Positions 3,327-19,730 of a DNA stretch of 64,000 nt are shown in pieces (the first letter of the stretch is position 1; every line of letters starts with the position of its first letter). Origin of the DNA: Mesorhizobium sp. (GTDB taxonomy: Bacteria > Pseudomonadota > Alphaproteobacteria > Rhizobiales > Rhizobiaceae); assembly GCF_004020365.1 (NCBI RefSeq), contig NZ_SAQR01000009.1; one strand, written 5' to 3'. Under the pieces are notes generated by a model. It ran no database searches and was not told the origin of the DNA. It saw only the letters and a list, made by a program, of their open reading frames with translations. The position numbers and the translations under genes were made by a program.

Positions 3327-4003
3327 GCGAACTTGATCGTATCAGGACAACGCTTCGGACAAGTCAACAAGCCACTTTCCCGCGTCAGATGCAGGCATTC
3401 GGACTGGATCTGGTCGTACAGGAAGGGGTTTTTCCTCCAGAGCACTTCCAGAGTTGGCGTTGGATTAGCGAGAATTTTCCCCCATTCGACGGAAAGACCG
3501 TCTTAGAAATCGGCTGCGGTTTCGGTCTTCCCGGCCTTCTGTTGGCAAAGACTGGCGCGCTGTCGTTGCTGACTTGTGACATCAATCCGAGGGCCGTCGC
3601 GAACACGTTGGAGAATGCTGCAAGAAACGGCATTAGTAACGTCGAGGTCATCGCAAGCGATATATTTAACAATGTTCCACCTGGCAGAAGGTTCGACATC
3701 ATATTTTGGAACTACCCGTCGAGCTACGCTCCAGAAGATTACGAGTTTGTCCACGACCTCGAAGGTGGTGCGATCGATCCAGGGTACAACTTGCTCGAGA
3801 GATTTCTTTCAGATGGCCCAAGGTTCCTTACGGAATCAGGTCGTATCGTTCTTGGGTTCGGCACTAATGCCCGTGACGACCTTCTTGAAAAGATTGCGGG
3901 TTCAAATGATCTCACATCTGTGCTTCTGCGAGCCGGGACCTATCCCGACGTCAACGTAACTTACAGGCTGTTCTCAATATCAAAGAAGGCCACAAGCGCA
4001 TGA
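3323..4003 (+). CDS. Class I SAM-dependent methyltransferase (HemK/MTS-like)
   Basis: VLEIGCGFG motif I, TCDINPRAV motif II and DIIFWNYP motif IV. ATGA overlap. Confidence 0.85.
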   Translation: MSELDRIRTTLRTSQQATFPRQMQAFGLDLVVQEGVFPPEHFQSWRWISENFPPFDGKTVLEIGCGFGLPGLLLAKTGALSLLTCDINPRAVANTLENAARNGISNVEVIASDIFNNVPPGRRFDIIFWNYPSSYAPEDYEFVHDLEGGAIDPGYNLLERFLSDGPRFLTESGRIVLGFGTNARDDLLEKIAGSNDLTSVLLRAGTYPDVNVTYRLFSISKKATSA

Positions 4004-4539
4004 TGCCCGAGCTGATGCGCATTGCGTTGGTCGCCATTTCGCGCAATCGGAGCAAAGATAGCTGGGTAGCGGGCAGTAGCGTCCTTTCGCAGTTCATCCA
4101 GCGTGCGCCGAACGACATTGACATTCATCATGTCAATTTGGCCGCATTCAATCAGGCTGTGGATAAGGATACCAGGGCTCTGGCGGACGCGGGGTTCTCC
4201 ATTGCCACATCGCGACCTGCCGACGCGGAGCTGGAGATCGTATTCTTGAGATCGAACGGGACCCTGGCGATAAATTGGGTTCTCGAACAGGAACGACCGA
4301 CGGCGTTAATCAACGATCCGCTTTTTGGGACAAGGGCGAGTTTCGCGGACGTCATCGCGCGAAAGGTCGAGATGCACCTGGAGAACCACCATTCGAAGCA
4401 CAGGGATGATCTCCTTGCACTCCTGGAGCATTCCGCCTCAATCTCGGCCGAAATGAGTCTGGACCAATTGGTTGGTAGCATCTCCGCGCTAGACCTCGCG
4501 AAATACGTCAATACCAACCTTCGTGGCAGCACGCGATAG
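4000..4539 (+). CDS. Putative nucleotidyltransferase-fold protein (AbiEii/Pol-beta-like)
   Basis: WVAGSSVL...RAPNDIDI resembles the G[GS]...DxD catalytic motif. ATGA overlap. Confidence 0.5.
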   Translation: MMPELMRIALVAISRNRSKDSWVAGSSVLSQFIQRAPNDIDIHHVNLAAFNQAVDKDTRALADAGFSIATSRPADAELEIVFLRSNGTLAINWVLEQERPTALINDPLFGTRASFADVIARKVEMHLENHHSKHRDDLLALLEHSASISAEMSLDQLVGSISALDLAKYVNTNLRGSTR

Positions 4540-12056: not shown

Positions 12057-13520
12057 TTAGATTCCACCCATGCAGAGGTACTTCATTTCGAGGTAGTCTT
12101 CGAGCCCGTGGCGGGAACCCTCCCGCCCGATGCCGGACTGCTTCATGCCGCCAAAGGGCGCCGCTTCCGAAGACATACGCCCCGTATTGATGCCAATCAT
12201 GCCATATTCCAATGCCTCGGCCACGCGCCAGACACGCCTCAGGTTCGAGGCATGGAAATAGGCGGCGAGCCCGTAAATCGTGTCGTTTGCCTCACAGACA
12301 ACCTGATCCGCATCGTGGAAGCGGATGATCGGCGCCAACGGCCCGAAAGTCTCCTCTTGCGCAACCGCCATGATGCTGGAGATCTCGGTGAAGGCTGTGG
12401 GTTGAAAACGTTCGGCCCCGCATCGAATTATCCCACCCTTAGCAACGGCATCTGCGATGTGGGACTCGATCTTGGCCAAAGCATGCATGTCGATGAGTGG
12501 TCAGACGTCCACTCCCGGAGCGAAGCCGTCGCCAACCGATAAGTGCCGGACTTTCTCCACGAACTTCTCGACGAACTCATCGTGAACGCTCGATTGGACG
12601 TAAAGCCGGTTCGATGAAACGCAAGTCTGGCCGGCATTGCGGAACTTCGCCTGGATCGCCCCGTCAACGGCAGCGTCAATATCCGCGTCGTCGAAGACGA
12701 TGAAGGGCGCATTGCCGCCGAGCTCGAGGCTGACCTTCTTGATCTAGTCCGAGCACTGGCGCATGAGCAGTCGGCCAACCTCGGTGGAGCCTGTAAAGCT
12801 GATGTTTCGGACCTTGGCATTGGAGCAGAGTTCGCGGCCCCACGCGATCACCTTCGGACGCATAGACCAGGTTGACAACGCCGTCAGGAAAGCCGGCTTG
12901 CTGCGCGAGGGCAAACATTGCACCTGCCACGAGCGGCGTCTGTTCAGCAGGTTTGAGCACGATCGCGCAGCCCGCCGCCAGGGCCGGCGAGATCTTGCGC
13001 GCCACCATCGACGCTGGGAAATTCCATGGCGTAATCGTGCCGACGACACCGATCTGCTGATTGATCACCATCATCCGACGGTCTGTAGACGGTGCGGAGA
13101 TCGTCTCGCCATAGATGCGATTGGCTTCTTCGGCGTACCATTGCAGATACGCGGCCGCATGCGAAACCTCCGACTTGGCTTCGGCAAACGGCTTGCCCAT
13201 TTCCGCAGTCAGAATCGCGGCGAGATCGCCTGCATGGCGATGATCAGCTGATGCCATCGCCAAAGAAGGTCGCTGCGCTCTCGGGCGGTCAGCGCCGCCC
13301 ATCCAGGCTGCGCGACATAGGCCTCGTCTACCGCAGCCCGTGTCTCCTCCACGCCCATGTCGGACGTCCTGCCAGCACTTCGCCGCTCGACGGGTTGAGG
13401 ACCACAAATGACCGCTCGCGAACTGACGTGCCAAGTGCCGGCAGGCGATGGACGGCGCCAAACAGGTCCGGGGATTTCAGTGGCGGATCATCGGCAGGCA
13501 CAGGGGCAAACCGGGTTCCT
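12057..13520 (-). pseudogene. gabD: NAD(P)-dependent succinate-semialdehyde dehydrogenase pseudogene
   Basis: ITPWNFP, FTGSTEVG, EETFGP and PFGGMKQSG motifs split across frames, with an in-frame stop near 12746. Paralog of 33635-35092. Confidence 0.9.
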
Positions 13521-14279
13521 CTCAAAGGCAGCTGATATGTATAATCGGCAGAGCCTCGGCGTGTACTCCGCACCTGCGGGTCCTTATAGGGCCTCGGCCA
13601 TACGGCTGGTAGACCATCCACTCAACTTGAAAGGGAGAATTCTTGAACGCTTCTGGTCGATGGCTTGCGGTTCTCATCAGGTGCAAACTGAACAATGGAC
13701 ATCGGCTTCCCGACCGCGCGTACCGGCCATCGGTCCGAATAGCAGCAGTGCAGCCAAATGCCTTTTTTGAGCATCATCGGATTGAAATTGCTTTCAAAAG
13801 TCCTCGATCTTGCCGCCCCCCATCGCGAGCGCCACAAACGGGCGTGGAAAATCAAAAGGGACCACAATCGAGAATCAGCACGGTGATGCCTTCTTTGCGA
13901 CCGTAGGCACGCAGATCATCTGCCAGCTGGGCTCGGGACCGTGCAGGTCGCGCCCCAAAAAACGAGAAGGGGGGTCGTTGTGGTGGAAGAGGTCGGGGAT
14001 TTTCGAAAGAGCGTCGTTTACGGCGGGTCGTCCCTGTAGAGCATTCCCCTCGAATGCGACCGCCTTCAAAGGAGGACTTGCCATCGACGCCACGCTGATA
14101 ACCGCTGCTGGCAAGCTGGAACTCAATACCGGTTAATTGCACTGAGGGCGGCGGCAACCACCCCTCGAAAACTTTTTGCCCGGGGGCTTAAGCTCGGAAA
14201 GAGTGTTCCTTATCATATTGTGTTCAAAGTAAATGGACGTGGTGCGTTTCGTGGGTTGAATCACATAAAGTAGTCTGTG

Positions 14280-14800
14280 TTAACGTCTGCCAAACCACGT
14301 TCCCTTGCCGGTTCCATGTTGGGGCTAGATGGTTTATTTCGACCAGGGTTGCCACATGTTTTTTGACGGTGTTCCGGTTTGCACCGGTCAGGTTGACGAT
14401 CTCGCCAATGGTCATTCGCCCGCGCTCCTTGATGGCTTCAACTATTTGAAGGGAGAGTTCCGGAAGCGTACCGAGCACGAGACGCTCGCGCTCGATTTTC
14501 TTCTCAAGCCGCTGCTTTTGCTGCTGAAGAGCGCGCAGGAAATAAACAGCCCAGGGCTGCCAATTAGGCCTCGGACTGCGGATCGTTTTTTGAGTTTGCC
14601 GAAGCGCCAGATAGTAGCCCTCCTTGCTGTTCTCGATCACGCTTTCGAGCGAAGAGTAAGGCACATAAGCATAGCCACTGCGCATCAGCAGAAGCGTCGT
14701 CAGAACGCGATAGCCTTCCATTGCCGTCCTGGAATGGATGGATCTCCAAAAAGACCACCGTGAACATTGCCACGACGAGCAGAGATCTCGACCGCATCGA
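14280..14800 (-). pseudogene. Fic-domain protein with C-terminal HTH, 5'-truncated and frameshifted
   Basis: HPFQDGNGRLSR Fic motif in one frame and the HTH (MTIGEIVNLTGANRNTVKKH) in another; original end QHGTGKGTWFGRR* at 14280. Confidence 0.8.
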
Positions 14801-14999
14801 CTGCGCCAGGCCGACGCCCGAAGGGATTGTGCAGACGATCGAGCGGTTACGTCGCCGGCGCTAGAAAATAGGCCCTCCACTGAGCATCTATCATTAGCCT
14901 GAACTTTCGAGCCCTTGCCAAGCTTTGTCGGGGCGGTCTCGCCCATCACGGCTGGGAAGTGCGGTCCATGGAAACCGGCGTATCAGTTAGATCGATCAT

Positions 15000-16838
15000 C
15001 TATGCAAACCCTTCGATGCGTTCGTGGACAATCGCGCGCATTTGCTCCGCCATCTTCGCGCCTTGAGAGCCGTCTGATAGAGGCGGCGGCAATTCGAGGT
15101 GGTTGAGCGCGCGTGAGAGGGCTGCAACAAGATCGTCGATGCTGGTATCCGCATCGGCTGCCTTGAGGCCAGCCGTGCTCGCGAAAGCCTTGAAGTCGGC
15201 GCGCCGCAGACGATCGTCCTTGCCGTTCAGCTTGAGGGCCATCCTGTCTTTTTCGAGGCGTGGAAACACGCGAGTCGTGACCGCGTCGTAGAGCGGAGCC
15301 ATGCGAACTGAGCTGAATTGCGTGCTGCCGGGCTCTGCGATTTCCAGCAGTGCCATGTTCTTCAGGTGCATGTCGCCATCGGCGATCAGCCAGGCGAATA
15401 AGGATCGCTTCAGGACAAGCAGGACGTCTTCTTCGGGAGAGGTCGATAGCGGCCTTAGTGCCCGCGCGATGCGCTCCATCGTGCCGTCGTATTTTGCTTC
15501 GGTGGGCACGCCAAGTACCGAGCAGAAGTCCTCAAGCGCGAGCAGGTGTTTGTCCTCGAGGCTCGTTCTGATATCGAACCGCTCCACGAGTAGCGCCGGA
15601 GGCATCCCGTCAGGCATCGGGACGAGCGCTGTCGCGGGCGTCTTGAAACCGGCCGCGCTGCCCAAAGCGAGCGACTGCCATTCGATAACTGGCAGGGCCT
15701 CAAATCCGCCCGTACCCGCAGGTTTGAGAATGTGGGTAAAAGGCCGGCCGATACTGGGAGAGAGGGTGCCATCCGCACTGAGGAACATAGGCGCTTTGAT
15801 CTGAACACCCGAAAGGCGAGGCGTATCAGTACGCTCGAATATCTGTGCGAAATTGCGTTCGAAACTCTGCTCCAGGTCGCCGCGACCCGGCCCTGCATAC
15901 TGGCCAGTGAAGACAGTGTTTCTAGTGAAGCCATTGAGCCGGGTTAACAGGATGTCGGGCGGCAGGGCGGAGAGATCGCTCGCACGCTCGACGATGGTGA
16001 TGTTGGACATGTAGCGTTTGCCCGAGCGTAGCGTCGCGCGCTCGTCGCGGTCGTTCAACACTGACTCAAGCCAGCCTTCAGGCAGCAGCGACAGAATGAA
16101 AGGAGGGAGCTTGCCCGGCGTGGTCTGGCGAACAAGTGGCGGGCCCTGATCGTCTGCATTCCAGCGCCACTCAAAACCATCATGTGTGAGATTTCCGAGC
16201 GGAGCGCCGTGCCACGCCACGATCAGATCGAGCGCGGCTCCGTTGCGTGCCGGTTCTGTGGTCAGTGGAGGGCGGAGGAAAAAGCGCTCGGCGTGCTCGC
16301 CCTCGCGATACCACTGGTTCGCGCGGGCAAGCGCCCATGTCGCGTCGGCAGCGCCCTGGGCGCTGCCGTATTGTTCTATGAGGCGGTTCGCGATTGCCTC
16401 GCGCATCGTCTCGTCGATGGATGCCGCGTGTTCGCTGCGCAGGCGGAAAGCTTCGAGGAAGCGCTGGCGCATCGAGGAGACGTCGATCCGGATTTCTCCC
16501 ATTCCATCATCGACAATCGCTTGAGCGACTGATGGGTGGTCGGGAGCTGCGTTCTGAATGATTTCCAGCAAGCGCAAGCGCCTGCGCTGTATTCGTCGCC
16601 CGCTCAGGAACAGGCGGCCATCCCGGGTCGGGCCGAGAAGCACAGCGCTCGCCGCCGAGAGGTAAGCGTTGGGATACAGGTATTTGGCGATGCGGACGGC
16701 GTGCTTGAGTATCGTGGCCTCGATATCCTCCCCGGCATCGACATAGATGCCGCGCATTAGCTGGACGAGCTTGCCCGTTTCAGCCTGATAGTGGCTGCGG
16801 GTTTTATCGATGTTTTCCCCAACGAGGTGAAGGGCCAT
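15000..16838 (-). CDS. HipA-like Ser/Thr kinase toxin with ~200-aa N-terminal extension
   Basis: LSGVQIK, GDMHLKN and APLYD kinase motifs; IVAWHG and LLPEG couple_hipA-like segment. Confidence 0.85.
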   Translation of the reverse strand: MALHLVGENIDKTRSHYQAETGKLVQLMRGIYVDAGEDIEATILKHAVRIAKYLYPNAYLSAASAVLLGPTRDGRLFLSGRRIQRRRLRLLEIIQNAAPDHPSVAQAIVDDGMGEIRIDVSSMRQRFLEAFRLRSEHAASIDETMREAIANRLIEQYGSAQGAADATWALARANQWYREGEHAERFFLRPPLTTEPARNGAALDLIVAWHGAPLGNLTHDGFEWRWNADDQGPPLVRQTTPGKLPPFILSLLPEGWLESVLNDRDERATLRSGKRYMSNITIVERASDLSALPPDILLTRLNGFTRNTVFTGQYAGPGRGDLEQSFERNFAQIFERTDTPRLSGVQIKAPMFLSADGTLSPSIGRPFTHILKPAGTGGFEALPVIEWQSLALGSAAGFKTPATALVPMPDGMPPALLVERFDIRTSLEDKHLLALEDFCSVLGVPTEAKYDGTMERIARALRPLSTSPEEDVLLVLKRSLFAWLIADGDMHLKNMALLEIAEPGSTQFSSVRMAPLYDAVTTRVFPRLEKDRMALKLNGKDDRLRRADFKAFASTAGLKAADADTSIDDLVAALSRALNHLELPPPLSDGSQGAKMAEQMRAIVHERIEGFA

Positions 16839-16841
16839 TTT

Positions 16842-16936
16842 CTAACTTTCCCGTATCTGATATACGGGAAAGCTAGCATAATCGGCTTCATATTCAAGAG
16901 TTTCGAACTTTCCCGTATTTGGTATACGCAAAAGTT
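16842..16936. promoter_or_regulatory. Two copies of a long palindrome (operator-like) directly upstream of the long hipA
   Basis: CTAACTTTCCCGTAT-N5-ATACGGGAAAGCTAG at 16842-16876 and AACTTTCCCGTAT-N5-ATACGCAAAAGTT at 16906-16936. Confidence 0.75.
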
Positions 16937-17091
16937 AGAATACTTTCTCGGAACGACGGCGTTCTTCGGGTCGGGAATCGAACCACGGGAGAGAACCTGG
17001 TCTGCGAAGGCGAGCAGGCAGAACTCAAGGCGTTCATTCTGCCACACCATAGTCGGATCAGCCACACGTAGGTCGGCGAGTCCGCGTGGGA

Positions 17092-18297
17092 TTATTCGCT
17101 GTCACGGGCCAACGCCCATAATCGCGGGCTCGGCCGAAAGCAGCTTCTTCGCCGCCGCCCTGCCTGCTCGAGGATCACCTGCTCGATGAGGGCCGGGCGG
17201 CGCTGGATGTAGTCTATGCCGAGTTTGTCGAGCTGCAACCCGACAAGCGTGGCGGAAATCGGCCTGGAGGAACCCAGATTGTCGATAGCATAGGCGCCGA
17301 TCAGACACTTCTTGCTCGCTTCGAGTTCGGCCGCTGTTGGGCCTGTGTCCACCAGCTCCTTGATTAGTTGTCTTATCAGGTCGAGCGTCTCGGCCGCCCT
17401 GTCGGCGCGCGTCGACGTCGTCACGACAAGCATGTTGGGCTGGTAGTCTTCCAAGCTGGACGAGACACCGTAGGCAAGGCCGCGCTTTTCGCGCACTTCC
17501 TGGAACAGACGTGAGGTAAATCGTGAGCCTCCGACTATATCGTTCATCAGCTGTCCCGCGTAGAATTCCGGGTCGTTGCGTCCCACGGCGGGAAAAGCCA
17601 GCTGGACCGAAGTCTGGGGGAGGGCGTTGCGACCTGCGTCCGCTCGCCGCTTCGGGGTGACATCAGGTACGGGGGCGAGCGCCTGTTTCTGAGGCAAATC
17701 GCCGAACAGCTGGTCGAGCCTTGCTCTCAGGGCTTTGGCATCTATGTCGCCTACGACCGCCACATGCAGCCCGTCGCGGGCGAAAGCGGCTTTGTGGAAG
17801 GCGCTTAGATCGGCGGGCGTTACGCTGGTCAGGCTCCCTTGGGCGGTCTCGAATACGGATGCGTGCCGTAGAGTCCGCGCCGCCAGGCCAGCTCGGGGAT
17901 CGCGTGAGGTTCGCGCTCATCGGCAATGATTTCGGAGAGAAGCTGGGCGCGTATGCGGTCGAAAACTGCTGGTATAGCCGGCTGCGGGTCCCGCCGCCGA
18001 GGATGTCGGCCAGCAGTCGAGCGCCTCGGCCTCGCCGGGTGCGGCCGTATGATAGGACGGCACCATCCATTGCGTGGAAAAGCGCGGCACCGAAATGCGC
18101 ACGCCGGTCAGCGTCACCGTGCGCTTGGCGTTTTGCTCCGGCTCGACTGGGCGGATGCGGGTTAGACCAGGAGCCGTCGGCACGGTTCCCTACGTCTTAT
18201 CGGCCAGCGCCTTGACCGTTTCCGGCTCGACATCGCCGGCCACCACCAGGACGGCGTTGCTGGGCGTGTAATATTTGTCATAGAAGGCTCTGGAGTC
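17092..18297 (-). pseudogene. Decayed M16 peptidase pair (paralog of 35516-38189), cut by IS256
   Basis: EVREKRGLAYGV, PQTSVQLAFP and [16 protein letters not shown] segments scattered over several frames, with deletions. Confidence 0.85.
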
Positions 18298-19730
18298 GGT
18301 GCCGTAGCGGATCGTGTTGGAATTTGGCGGAGCAGCCTCCGGTAAATTGAGGTTATCGGTTCATGCGGCGAGGTCAATCTGCTGATCGAGTGGCTTGGCG
18401 GGGAGCGTGTGCCATCCGTCGATTTTTCGCATCGAGATTTCGCCGGACGCAATCAACGCCCAGAACAACATTGCCGCGGTTTCGGCCGAAGGCAGCACGG
18501 TCTGGGTCTTGATGCGCCGCTTGAACTCTTCATGCAGACGCTCAATCGCGTTTGTAGTTCTGGTGCGCTTTTCCACTGGCTCGGCGGCAGGCGCGTGAAG
18601 GCGAAGAGGCGCTCACCGGCCTCCTCCAGGCTGTCGGCCACCGCCCGGCACTTGAGCCGCCATTTGCGCAGGAACGCCTTGCGGCGGCTCTCGATCTCCT
18701 CCGGCGTGGCCGCGTAGATCATGTCGGTGTAATCGGCGCTGATCTCCTCGTGCAGGCGCTCGGGAGCGTGGGCGAGCAGGTTGCGGTGCTTGTGAACCGT
18801 GCATCTTTGAACCGGCACCCCGTCCCACAGCCCAGCGATCGCCCCGTCCAAGCCGGGTGCGCCGTCGACGATGAGGAACTCAGGGCGGCGGAGGCCGCGT
18901 GCGACGAGATCGTCGAGGATCGCCCGCCAGGCCTCGGTCGTCTCGCCGCCCATGTTCTTGACCGCGAGCAGGATCTTGTGGCCGTCCGCGCGCACGCCGA
19001 TGACAACGAGCAGCGGGATCGAGGTCGCCTTGCGGTCGAGCCTGACACGAACCACCGTCCCGTCGAGGATCAGGCGCACGATCGGGCTCGTCGGCCAGCG
19101 AGCGACCCTTCCAGGCGTCCCAGTCCGTCTTCACCTTGCGCCAGGTGCGGCTGACGACGTCCTTGCCGATCGCGCCGCCGAACAAGGCGGCAAGCGCACG
19201 ACGGACGCGTCGCGTGTTCGTGCCCGCCAGGTAGCTCGACGCGATCAGTGCGTCGGCGGCCTTCGTGCGCCGCTGATAGGCGCGCAGAGCCTTGCTCCTC
19301 CATTCCACCGTCTTGTCCTCGTCGACATCGAGGCGCGCCCGCGTAACCGTGATCTCAGTGGTGCCGAAGGTCCCCGTCAGCGTGCGCGTCCGGCTGCCGT
19401 GGCGGTGGCCGGCGACACCGGTGGTCTCATCACTGGCGCGCCGCCGGCTGCCGGCCATAACGGGGACGGGCAAGCACCGCTTCCAACTCGGTCTCGAGCA
19501 TCGTCTCGATGAAGCCGCGCACCCGCTCGCGCAGGCCAGCTTCGATCGGATCAAACCAGTTGTCGAAAAGATAGCTCGTCGCCTCATCCCCCGGATGAAC
19601 GGCTTCGGCTTTCATGGTAGTCCTTGTCATGGCGTAGTCTCCTGTCCGGCACCGCAAGGCCGGATGATTCGAGGTTGACACCCCGGAGACTACGCCAACT
19701 CACAATTCCAACCACTCCCGCGACGGCACC
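18298..19730 (-). mobile_element. IS256-family insertion sequence with frameshifted transposase (about 18361-19630)
   Basis: LILDG, LIVDGAPGL, QRCTVHK and TTNAIERLHEEFKRR motifs. Imperfect terminal IRs GGTGCCGT(A/C)GCGG...TTGGAATT. No target duplication. Confidence 0.9.

What the first reader, a model, noticed from the sequence alone, without database searches (positions are those of the whole stretch)
14280..16936. HipA-like kinase without a HipB, with its own N-terminal domain, twin operators and a downstream Fic
Seen: a 612-aa kinase with ~200 extra N-terminal residues, no HTH antitoxin ORF upstream, two copies of a ~31-35-bp palindrome right before the ATG, and a Fic remnant downstream. 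Established: canonical hipBA needs HipB, while E. coli YjjJ is a single-gene HipA-like kinase with an N-terminal DNA-binding region. Inference: a self-regulating one-component toxin, or a kinase-Fic pair in which one enzyme modifies the other, possibly for defence or replicon stabilisation.
Basis: partly seen in the sequence, partly recalled or inferred. Interest (0 to 1): 0.65.

Follow-up and report, generated by a model that had tools for sequence, protein, structure and literature searches.

The report
Self-regulated HipA kinase fused to AbiEi
One intact gene joins a HipA-type growth-arrest kinase to a copy of the AbiEi antitoxin/repressor fold and carries two private palindromic operator-like sites in its own promoter, forming a widespread, apparently undescribed one-gene relative of the hipBA toxin-antitoxin module; the broken Fic gene next to it is an accidental neighbour.

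Summary
Window 15000-16838 (-) encodes an intact 612-aa protein. It has a HipA kinase core, a HipS-like N-subdomain and about 190 extra N-terminal residues. No HTH gene lies upstream. Two 33-39-bp palindromes, 62 bp apart, lie directly before the ATG. A Fic remnant lies downstream.

The extra module is not an orphan. Its high-confidence model matches only the AbiEi antitoxin/repressor (PDB 6Y8Q), and half of the diverse relatives hit Pfam AbiEi_4.

The fusion is found in 534 species genomes across at least six phyla, always about 612 aa. It is under strong purifying selection and has no conserved neighbour gene.

The twin palindromes are conserved in position. The distal one sits just upstream of a TTGA -35 element; the proximal one contains the -10 position and abuts the ATG. 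Their sequence changes together with the predicted recognition helix in distant relatives. In this 7.2-Mb genome they occur nowhere else.

Best reading: a monocistronic, self-repressing toxin-type kinase. DNA binding, toxicity and the trigger are inferred, not shown.

The kinase-Fic pairing is rejected. The conserved cassette ends about 30 nt after the stop codon, and Fic is a truncated, frameshifted fragment seen only in this lineage.

This scan found the same family earlier on other genomes. I found no paper describing it.

The parts
15000..16838 (-). Intact 612-aa gene: AbiEi-like module + HipS-like subdomain + HipA/HipT-type kinase (stop codon 15000-15002)
   Evidence: ORF list. The identical protein is on record (P0001). 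dN/dS is 0.06-0.24 on all three parts against relatives.
16269..16838 (-). Residues 1-190: AbiEi-like module. It has a short N-terminal strand-helix-wing DNA-binding part (helix 12-20, wing GKLVQLMRGIYV) and a beta-rich/helical C-terminal domain.
   Evidence: AlphaFold model has pLDDT 92.7. Foldseek against PDB: AbiEi 6Y8Q, E 9.8e-6, probability 1.0, about 206 aligned columns, TM 0.46-0.50; the next hit has E 0.27. Pfam AbiEi_4 hits 5 of 10 diverse family members, best E 5.7e-4. PADLOC AbiEi E 0.0055.
16233..16268 (-). Residues 191-202: flexible linker between the AbiEi-like module and the kinase
   Evidence: pLDDT is below 50 for residues 191-198 in the full-length model. pTM is 0.68 although mean pLDDT is 90.7.
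15909..16232 (-). Residues 203-310: HipA N-subdomain 1 / HipS-like domain
   Evidence: Foldseek: HipS of E. coli HipBST (7ab3_E), TMt 0.66, probability 1.0; full-length HipA 3DNT aligns over about 450 columns. Weak sequence hits to HipS chains.
15003..15908 (-). Residues 311-612: core kinase. It carries the Gly-rich loop RLSGVQIK (S343, K348), K372, catalytic D489-x-H491-x-K493-N494 and Mg-binding D518.
   Evidence: Pfam HipA_C 130 bits. PDB sequence hits: HipT(Lp) E 1e-17, HipA E 1e-8. Foldseek: HipT(Lp) TMt 0.82, rmsd 2.7. These residues are invariant across relatives down to 29% identity.
16842..16876 (.). Proximal palindrome (operator O1). It abuts the ATG, and its outer left arm coincides with the predicted -10 (TAGCTT 16870-16875; family consensus TAACTT).
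   Evidence: Conserved before the ATG in the related loci. TTGA lies 31-33 nt upstream of the proximal CGTA core in 37 loci.
16902..16940 (.). Distal palindrome (operator O2), immediately upstream of the -35-like TTGAAT (16892-16897)
   Evidence: The centre-to-centre distance to O1 is 62-65 bp in 43 of the 54 loci that have both sites. It marks the outer end of the DNA conserved with relatives.
14970..14999 (-). Stub of a lineage-specific downstream gene (MIDLTDTPVS...), cut off at a rearrangement junction
   Evidence: In Mesorhizobium plasmids the full 128-161-aa ORF starts at TAGATG, directly abutting the kinase stop codon. It gives a weak DUF6998 match, E 3e-4, below the cut-off. The window sequence diverges after about 30 nt.
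14224..14949 (-). Fic (SoFic-type) pseudogene fragment, not part of the system
   Evidence: The Fic motif and the C-terminal part are in different frames, and only the distal part of the profile is matched.

Best explanation
The gene is a self-contained, monocistronic member of the HipA kinase superfamily, and the usual separate partners have been replaced by fused parts.

Shown:
- Residues 1-190 have the two-domain fold of AbiEi, the antitoxin and autorepressor of type IV AbiE systems.
- A flexible linker follows, then a HipS-like subdomain, then a HipT/HipA-type Ser/Thr kinase with every catalytic residue intact.
- The domain architecture is conserved and under purifying selection.
- No partner gene is conserved.
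- The palindromes are conserved, positioned around the promoter and private to this gene.

Inferred:
- The AbiEi-like module binds the four half-sites of the two palindromes. One lies just upstream of the -35 element. The other covers the -10 position and the start of the transcript.
- This represses the gene's own transcription and keeps the kinase scarce. AbiEi and Rv2827c do the same at their own inverted repeats.
- When free and active, the kinase probably phosphorylates an essential translation factor (an aminoacyl-tRNA synthetase, by analogy with HipA and HipT) and arrests growth.
- Activity would be limited by autorepression, by autophosphorylation of the invariant Gly-rich-loop serine S343, and possibly by the tethered N-module acting as a cis antitoxin or trigger sensor.

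The cassette of about 1.97 kb (window 14971-16941) travels as a unit between mobile elements.
For: - Architecture: Pfam HipA_C. Structure models have pLDDT 92.7 and 90.7. AbiEi 6Y8Q is the only significant fold match for the N-module. HipA, HipT and HipS match the rest. AbiEi_4 hits 5 of 10 diverse N-modules.
- Conservation: 534 species genomes encode a relative. The 80 retrieved are 66-100% identical and about 612 aa, from Alpha-, Beta- and Gammaproteobacteria, Acidobacteriota, Verrucomicrobiota, Gemmatimonadota and Rokubacteria. dN/dS is 0.06-0.12.
- The N-module is found only in this fusion. There were 225 hits among 1.8 billion representatives; the full-length ones I examined, 600-684 aa, carry the same fusion, and the nine short ones I examined are truncated or frameshifted.
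- No partner: no shared neighbour cluster. No Pfam family occurs in more than 3 of 141 nearest-neighbour ORFs.
- Operators: the two-palindrome layout occurs in 53 of 82 loci against 8 of 1640 shuffles. TTGA lies at a fixed 31-33 nt from the proximal core. Spacing is 62-65 bp. The sites are unique in the 7.24-Mb genome.
- Distant relatives have a different helix 12-20 and different repeats at the same positions. Two relatives that share the ERRARYLA helix also share a TGTCGGTTT(C/T)ATAT repeat.
- Precedent: AbiEi and Rv2827c bind inverted repeats that overlap their promoters and repress them (PMC3985639, PMC7319586). Rv2827c uses two pairs within -1 to -131.
Against: - No binding, expression, kinase or toxicity data exist.
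- The window's own protein gives no Pfam AbiEi hit and only E 0.005 in PADLOC.
- The fold match has a modest TM of 0.46-0.50.
- The DNA-binding part is cut down: only one helix and a strand precede the wing, so it is not a complete H1-H2-H3 winged HTH.
- The consensus promoter scan finds no sigma-70 site in the window. The -10 assignment rests on conserved position, not on hexamer quality.
- A single polypeptide cannot use differential antitoxin decay, so how the kinase would ever be released is unknown.
Confidence: 0.7

Rival explanations
1. The palindromes act at the RNA level. The proximal one would fold into a 5'-UTR hairpin that masks the ribosome-binding region and controls translation or mRNA stability. 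No protein-DNA operator would be involved.
For: The proximal palindrome folds strongly as RNA: -22.7 kcal/mol, z = -4.9. It ends 3-4 nt before the ATG. No good Shine-Dalgarno sequence is visible.
Against: A second copy of the same sequence sits upstream of the conserved -35 TTGA, where it would not be transcribed from this promoter. By position, the -10 falls in the outer left arm, so the transcript would lack most of that arm. Any perfect DNA palindrome folds well as RNA. The adjacent protein carries a repressor fold known to bind inverted repeats.
Confidence: 0.1
2. This is not a toxin but a one-component regulatory kinase or transcription factor. The AbiEi-like module is a DNA-binding domain, and the kinase modulates it (or a metabolic target) in response to a signal, without arresting growth.
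For: There is no antitoxin gene. The gene is very highly conserved (66-100% identity across phyla), which is unusual for TA toxins. E. coli YjjJ/HipH is likewise monocistronic.
Against: The operator occurs only at its own promoter, so there is no regulon. Distribution is patchy and spread by horizontal transfer. Neighbouring genes in the loci I inspected include integrases, transposases and other TA genes (RES-Xre, PIN, MqsA). All residues of toxic HipA/HipT kinases are retained.
Confidence: 0.15
3. A kinase-Fic two-enzyme module, the first reader's alternative: the kinase and the downstream Fic protein form a functional pair.
For: In this window the two genes are adjacent and on the same strand. 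A Fic gene also lies about 3 kb from the kinase on a Sphingomonas plasmid.
Against: Similarity to relatives ends about 30 nt after the stop codon, at a junction that truncates a different gene. Fic is frameshifted and lacks its N-terminal part. Among 91 loci a Fic motif lies next to the kinase only in the window's own lineage (L006-L008). Three other loci have one at unrelated distances and on the opposite strand.
Confidence: 0.02

Closest known systems
HipH / YjjJ of E. coli K-12 (clade X of the Hip tree; Gerdes et al. 2021, PMC8262856)
   Same: A monocistronic HipA-homologous kinase with a DNA-binding module fused to its N-terminus. That module has been proposed as a cis-acting regulator or antitoxin.
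   Different: HipH has an extension of about 100 aa with an Xre-type HTH and lacks N-subdomain 1. Here the extension is a two-domain AbiEi-like module of about 190 aa, followed by a HipS-like subdomain. The NCBIfam YjjJ equivalog scores 14 bits against a cut-off of 401.
HipBST (E. coli O127, Legionella pneumophila)
   Same: The order of functions is the same: DNA-binding regulator, then HipS-like domain, then HipT-like core kinase. HipT(Lp) is the best sequence and local structural match. A Gly-rich-loop serine sits at the HipT Ser59 position.
   Different: HipBST is three separate proteins with an Xre-type HipB. Here there is one polypeptide and the regulator is AbiEi-like. The Ser57/Ser150 position is Arg (R341).
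AbiEi / Rv2827c (COG5340 antitoxins of type IV AbiE / MenAT systems)
   Same: The two-domain fold. The promoter has inverted repeats that overlap promoter elements close to the start codon; Rv2827c has two pairs within -1 to -131.
   Different: Those proteins stand alone and are paired with a DUF1814 nucleotidyltransferase toxin. Here the module is covalently fused to an unrelated kinase toxin, its winged HTH is shortened, and there is no adjacent NTase.
Canonical HipBA (E. coli K-12, Shewanella oneidensis)
   Same: The full HipA fold, including N-subdomain 1 (TMt about 0.72). The promoter has multiple operators.
   Different: There is no hipB gene. Sequence similarity is only E 1e-8.
Fused toxin-antitoxin proteins such as CapRel(SJ46) (PMC9712102)
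   Same: One polypeptide carries both the toxin domain and an antitoxin-type domain.
   Different: The domains are unrelated. In CapRel the antitoxin domain is C-terminal, and it is experimentally shown to sense a phage capsid protein. Nothing of that kind is shown here.

Membership tests
HipA kinase superfamily (Pfam HipA_C, PF07804) | HipA_C domain above the curated threshold | tested here: met
   130.4 bits against a cut-off of 30.5, residues 342-576.
HipA kinase superfamily (Pfam HipA_C, PF07804) | Gly-rich loop with Lys, catalytic D-x-H-x-K-N, and Mg-binding Asp | tested here: met
   S343, G344, Q346, K348, K372, D489, H491, K493, N494 and D518 are invariant in alignments down to 29% identity.
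HipA kinase superfamily (Pfam HipA_C, PF07804) | Ser/Thr kinase activity causing growth arrest | not testable with these tools
   Needs expression and phosphoproteomics.
Canonical type II hipBA module | Adjacent hipB gene encoding an Xre-type HTH antitoxin | tested here: not met
   No such ORF in the window. HTH_3 occurs in only 3 of 141 nearest-neighbour ORFs of related loci.
HipH / YjjJ | Match to the NCBIfam equivalog NF007297 | tested here: not met
   14 bits against a cut-off of 401.
HipH / YjjJ | Monocistronic, with a DNA-binding domain fused to the N-terminus | tested here: met
   No conserved neighbour. The N-module has a repressor fold. However, the domain is a different kind (AbiEi-like, not Xre HTH).
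AbiEi (COG5340 / Pfam AbiEi_4) antitoxin-repressors | Sequence match to AbiEi profiles | tested here: inconclusive
   The window protein has no Pfam hit and PADLOC AbiEi E 0.0055. Of 10 diverse family members, 5 hit AbiEi_4, best E 5.7e-4.
AbiEi (COG5340 / Pfam AbiEi_4) antitoxin-repressors | Two-domain fold: winged HTH plus C-terminal domain | tested here: met
   Foldseek 6Y8Q E 9.8e-6, probability 1.0, about 206 columns, TM 0.46-0.50; it is the only significant hit. The winged HTH is shortened.
AbiEi (COG5340 / Pfam AbiEi_4) antitoxin-repressors | Paired with a DUF1814 (AbiEii) nucleotidyltransferase toxin | tested here: not met
   The module is fused to a kinase. No conserved neighbour exists.
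AbiEi (COG5340 / Pfam AbiEi_4) antitoxin-repressors | Binds inverted repeats in its own promoter and represses it | not testable with these tools
   Repeats are present, conserved and private to this gene. Binding is untested.
Fic/Doc (downstream remnant) | Intact ORF carrying the HPFx(D/E)GN(G/K)R motif | tested here: not met
   The motif is present, but in a different frame from the C-terminal part, and the N-terminal part is missing.

The most novel reading that the evidence does not exclude
The fusion is a single-chain equivalent of a whole three-part Hip system: regulator, HipS-like part and kinase. In this reading the AbiEi-like module is both the DNA tether and a cis-acting antitoxin or trigger sensor. 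While four protomers sit on the two in-phase operators the kinase is held inactive. An invading phage or plasmid factor could displace the module, or the disordered linker (residues 191-202) could be cleaved. Either event would free the kinase to shut down translation. This would be a one-gene abortive-infection or addiction device, built by recombining the antitoxin of one TA type with the toxin of another.
Probability: 0.25. Interest if true: 0.8.

Novelty: new variant of a known kind. Interest (0 to 1): 0.55.

Why it matters
HipA kinases are the founding persistence toxins. Their published classification (10 gene organisations; Gerdes et al. 2021) does not describe this architecture, and I found no paper that does. 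Yet it occurs in more than 500 species genomes across several phyla.

It shows that an antitoxin/repressor module from a type IV system (AbiE) can be transplanted onto a toxin of a different type, which bears on how TA and defence systems evolve by module shuffling.

Toxin, regulator and operators fit in about 2 kb, and the predicted operators are well defined. That makes it a compact test case for two questions: how a fused, non-degradable "antitoxin" can control a toxin, and whether HipA-type kinases serve in phage defence or mobile-element maintenance.

In this genome it is an intact gene inside a decaying stretch of a Mesorhizobium symbiosis-island-like region, which suggests selection still maintains it.

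Tried and rejected
- Kinase-Fic pairing: rejected (junction mapping; Fic motif census).
- A conserved partner gene upstream or downstream: ORF clustering over about 85 loci and Pfam tallies on 141 nearest-neighbour ORFs found none. One "cluster" in 11 loci is an antisense ORF overlapping the conserved 5' end of the gene, which I treat as an artefact.
- The downstream MIDLTD... ORF (DUF6998-like) as a partner: present only in three Phyllobacteriaceae loci and reduced to a stub here.
- Stand-alone or split versions of the N-module: the nine short hits I examined (9 of the many short hits) are truncated or frameshifted.
- Membership in HipH/YjjJ: fails the NCBIfam equivalog.
- Sequence search of the N-module profile against PDB: nothing significant. 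Only the fold comparison found AbiEi.
- A sigma-70 consensus scan found no promoter in the window. The promoter assignment rests on conserved position instead.
- Search for the family in Gerdes Table S1: no match. The stored copy of the table is truncated, so absence is not proven.
- Literature searches for an AbiEi-HipA fusion: none found.
Full report
**Observation**

The ORF list shows an intact 612-aa ORF at 15000..16838 on the minus strand. Pfam places a HipA_C domain at residues 342-576, at 130 bits against a cut-off of 30.5. The typical HipA N-subdomain motifs begin near residue 203 (LDLIVAWHG..., LPPFILSLLPEGWL). About 200 residues are therefore extra.

Upstream, 16839-17091 holds no credible gene. 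The next ORF (17092-17763) is a C-terminal fragment of an M16 peptidase.

Two palindromes sit directly before the ATG:
- Proximal: arms 16842-16856 and 16862-16876, 93% complementary.
- Distal: arms 16902-16918 and 16924-16940, 82% complementary.
- As direct copies they are 83% identical, 62 bp apart start to start.

A Fic remnant lies downstream. The HPFQDGNGR motif is in frame 14564-14797 (Pfam Fic). The SoFic-like C-terminal part with its winged helix is in another frame, 14224-14949.

**What the extra N-terminal part is**

No Pfam or NCBIfam family hits it in the window protein. PADLOC gives only a weak AbiEi hit at residues 8-66, E 0.005.

A phmmer search with residues 1-200 against 1.8 billion cluster representatives found only 225 proteins. 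The full-length ones I examined (600-684 aa) have the same fusion. The nine short ones I examined are contig-end truncations or frameshifted copies. The module is therefore known only in this fusion.

Of ten diverse family members (27-47% identical in this part), five hit Pfam AbiEi_4, best E 5.7e-4.

I modelled residues 1-203 using a 64-row alignment drawn from the window and fetched loci. The model has mean pLDDT 92.7 and pTM 0.85. Foldseek against the PDB returned one significant match: the AbiEi antitoxin of Streptococcus agalactiae (6Y8Q). It scored E 9.8e-6, probability 1.0, about 206 aligned columns covering both domains, TM 0.46-0.50. The next hit had E 0.27.

The DNA-binding part is shortened. 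One strand (3-6) and one helix (12-20) precede the wing (24-28 and 31-34, GKLVQLMRGIYV). AbiEi itself has H1-S1-H2-t-H3-S2-W1-S3.

**The rest of the protein**

The full-length model has pLDDT 90.7 and pTM 0.68. Residues 191-198 are disordered, which suggests two units joined by a flexible linker.

Its Foldseek matches are:
- full-length HipA (3DNT, E 9e-18, TMt 0.72);
- HipT of Legionella (TMt 0.82, rmsd 2.7);
- HipS of E. coli HipBST for residues about 203-300 (TMt 0.66);
- AbiEi again for the N-module.

By sequence the kinase is nearer HipT(Lp), E 1e-17, than E. coli HipA, E 1e-8.

The Gly-rich loop (R341-L-S343-G-V-Q-I-K348), K372, D489-x-H491-x-K493-N494 and D518 are invariant even among members only 29-50% identical. 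S343 lies at the position of HipT Ser59. The Ser57/Ser150 position is Arg.

**Distribution and selection**

A pattern scan of one genome per species found 534 encoded relatives. The 80 retrieved are 66-100% identical, nearly all full length. They come from Alpha-, Beta- and Gammaproteobacteria, Acidobacteriota, Verrucomicrobiota, Gemmatimonadota and Rokubacteria. Plasmid copies occur in Mesorhizobium, Nitrobacter, Rhizobium and Sphingomonas.

dN/dS against relatives is about 0.06-0.12 for the N-module, the HipS-like part and the kinase alike, and up to 0.24 for the closest pair.

Such high identity across phyla, together with a patchy distribution, points to horizontal transfer under strong constraint.

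**No partner gene**

All-against-all clustering of flanking ORFs in about 85 loci found no shared neighbour. The few recurring clusters are integrases or recombinases, genes specific to the window's own lineage, or an antisense ORF over the conserved 5' end.

A Pfam tally on the nearest upstream and downstream ORFs of more than 70 loci found no family in more than 3 of 141 ORFs; HTH_3 occurred in 3.

Among the loci whose flanks I inspected, neighbours include integrases, transposases, RES-Xre, PIN and MqsA-type genes, and an ImmA/IrrE-like gene.

They do not.

**The palindromes**

In the related loci the same motif, TAACTTTCSCGTA-N5-7-TACGSGAAAGTTA, abuts the ATG. A second copy lies 62-65 bp upstream, centre to centre, in 43 of the 54 loci where both copies were scored.

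Two palindromes with at least 9 of 12 arm matches occur in 53 of 82 loci, against 8 of 1640 shuffled upstream regions.

A TTGA follows the distal copy and lies 31-33 nt before the CGTA core of the proximal copy in 37 loci. With a 17-nt spacer, the -10 falls on the outermost six bases of the proximal left arm. The family consensus there is TAACTT; in the window it is TAGCTT at 16870-16875, with TTGAAT at 16892-16897.

The hexamers are weak, and the generic sigma-70 scan reports nothing. The promoter is therefore inferred from conserved position only.

In the 7.24-Mb genome the full palindrome occurs only at these two sites (1 and 2 mismatches). The next best candidates have 5 mismatches. It is a private operator, not a regulon motif.

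More distant family members keep the layout but change the sequence together with helix 12-20:
- P0137 (helix KHRAQYGVE) has CTACCTTTGCGG-type arms.
- P0147 (KHAAAYGAE) has CTACCTTGAGGG-type arms.
- P0212 and P0393 share ERRARYLA and share TGTCGGTTT(C/T)ATAT repeats.

This is the pattern expected if the fused module reads these sites.

AbiEi and M. tuberculosis Rv2827c are experimentally shown to bind inverted repeats overlapping their promoters and to repress them. Rv2827c uses two pairs within -1 to -131 (PMC3985639, PMC7319586).

**The RNA alternative**

The proximal palindrome folds well as RNA: -22.7 kcal/mol, z -4.9. That is true of any palindrome. The distal copy lies upstream of the -35, and the predicted TSS lies inside the left arm. 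I rate this rival low but not excluded.

**Fic and the edges of the cassette**

Megablast similarity to plasmid relatives spans window 14971-16941. That runs from the outer end of the distal palindrome to about 30 nt past the stop codon.

In Mesorhizobium plasmids a 128-161-aa ORF (MIDLTDAPVS...) starts at TAGATG, directly abutting the kinase stop codon. It gives a weak DUF6998 match below the cut-off. The window retains only its first 10 codons before the sequence diverges.

The Fic fragment therefore lies beyond a rearrangement junction, in a stretch rich in pseudogenes. Among 91 loci a Fic motif sits beside the kinase only in the window's own lineage. The kinase-Fic pair idea is rejected.

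**Comparison with what is known**

Gerdes et al. 2021 define 10 Hip gene organisations. None has an AbiEi-like N-module. The nearest in logic is HipH/YjjJ, which is monocistronic with an N-terminal HTH of about 100 aa. This protein fails the YjjJ equivalog, 14 bits against 401, and it has a HipS-like subdomain, which HipH lacks.

The order regulator, HipS-like part, HipT-like kinase mirrors HipBST in a single chain.

The family's motifs were absent from the stored copy of their Table S1, which is truncated. Literature searches found no description of an AbiEi-HipA fusion.

**Earlier findings of this scan**

After I had reached the reading above, I looked up earlier notes. The same family had been flagged on at least five other genomes, with follow-ups reaching the same conclusion: an AbiEi-like head, twin operators, HipH as closest known, and no published description. 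These are not independent evidence. They do mean that this window adds another member rather than a first sighting.

This analysis adds the following:
- the junction mapping that removes Fic from the system;
- the genome-wide uniqueness of the operator;
- the placement of the -10 inside the proximal arm;
- the covariation between helix and operator in distant members;
- the neighbour tallies.

**Verdict**

The architecture and its conservation are shown. Autorepression through the palindromes is a strong inference. Toxicity, the target, cis-neutralisation and any defence or stabilisation role are analogies that remain to be tested.

I rate it a new variant of a known kind, of moderate to good interest.

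Noticed in passing
window 12057-13461 (-), 17092-17763 (-), 18453-19681 (-): The intact kinase gene sits among decayed genes. These are aldehyde-dehydrogenase fragments in several frames, a C-terminal fragment of an M16 (pitrilysin-type) peptidase, and a mutator-family transposase split over two frames.
   Followed up: partly
L002 3643-4029 and L003 3541-4026 (Mesorhizobium plasmids); stub at window 14970-14999: A 128-161-aa ORF (MIDLTDAPVS...) starts at TAGATG, directly abutting the kinase stop codon. It has a PD-(D/E)xK-like D...QIK motif and a weak DUF6998 match below the cut-off. It is seen only in Phyllobacteriaceae copies. It might be a lineage-specific accessory gene.
   Followed up: partly
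L005 (Sphingomonas plasmid pC33) and L088 (metagenome contig): A RES-Xre (MbcA/ParS-type) toxin-antitoxin pair lies within about 1.5 kb of the kinase gene in two otherwise unrelated loci. This may reflect TA or defence islands, or coincidence.
   Followed up: no
L047 and L063 (same Acidobacteriota contig, about 28 kb apart): Two paralogous copies of the fusion gene lie on one contig, with slightly different proximal operators. In L063 a 1333-aa ORF starts 3 nt before the kinase stop codon.
   Followed up: no
L009 5891-6121 against window 14910-14949: After the junction, M. metallidurans and the window share about 13 more codons (M[MV]GET..TKLGKG). They then diverge again, which indicates a second, nested rearrangement scar.
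   Followed up: no
window 4000-4539 (+): The nucleotidyltransferase-like ORF flagged by another first-reader note gave no Pfam hit at E <= 0.01. It is about 10 kb away, and I found no link to the AbiEi-like module.
   Followed up: partly
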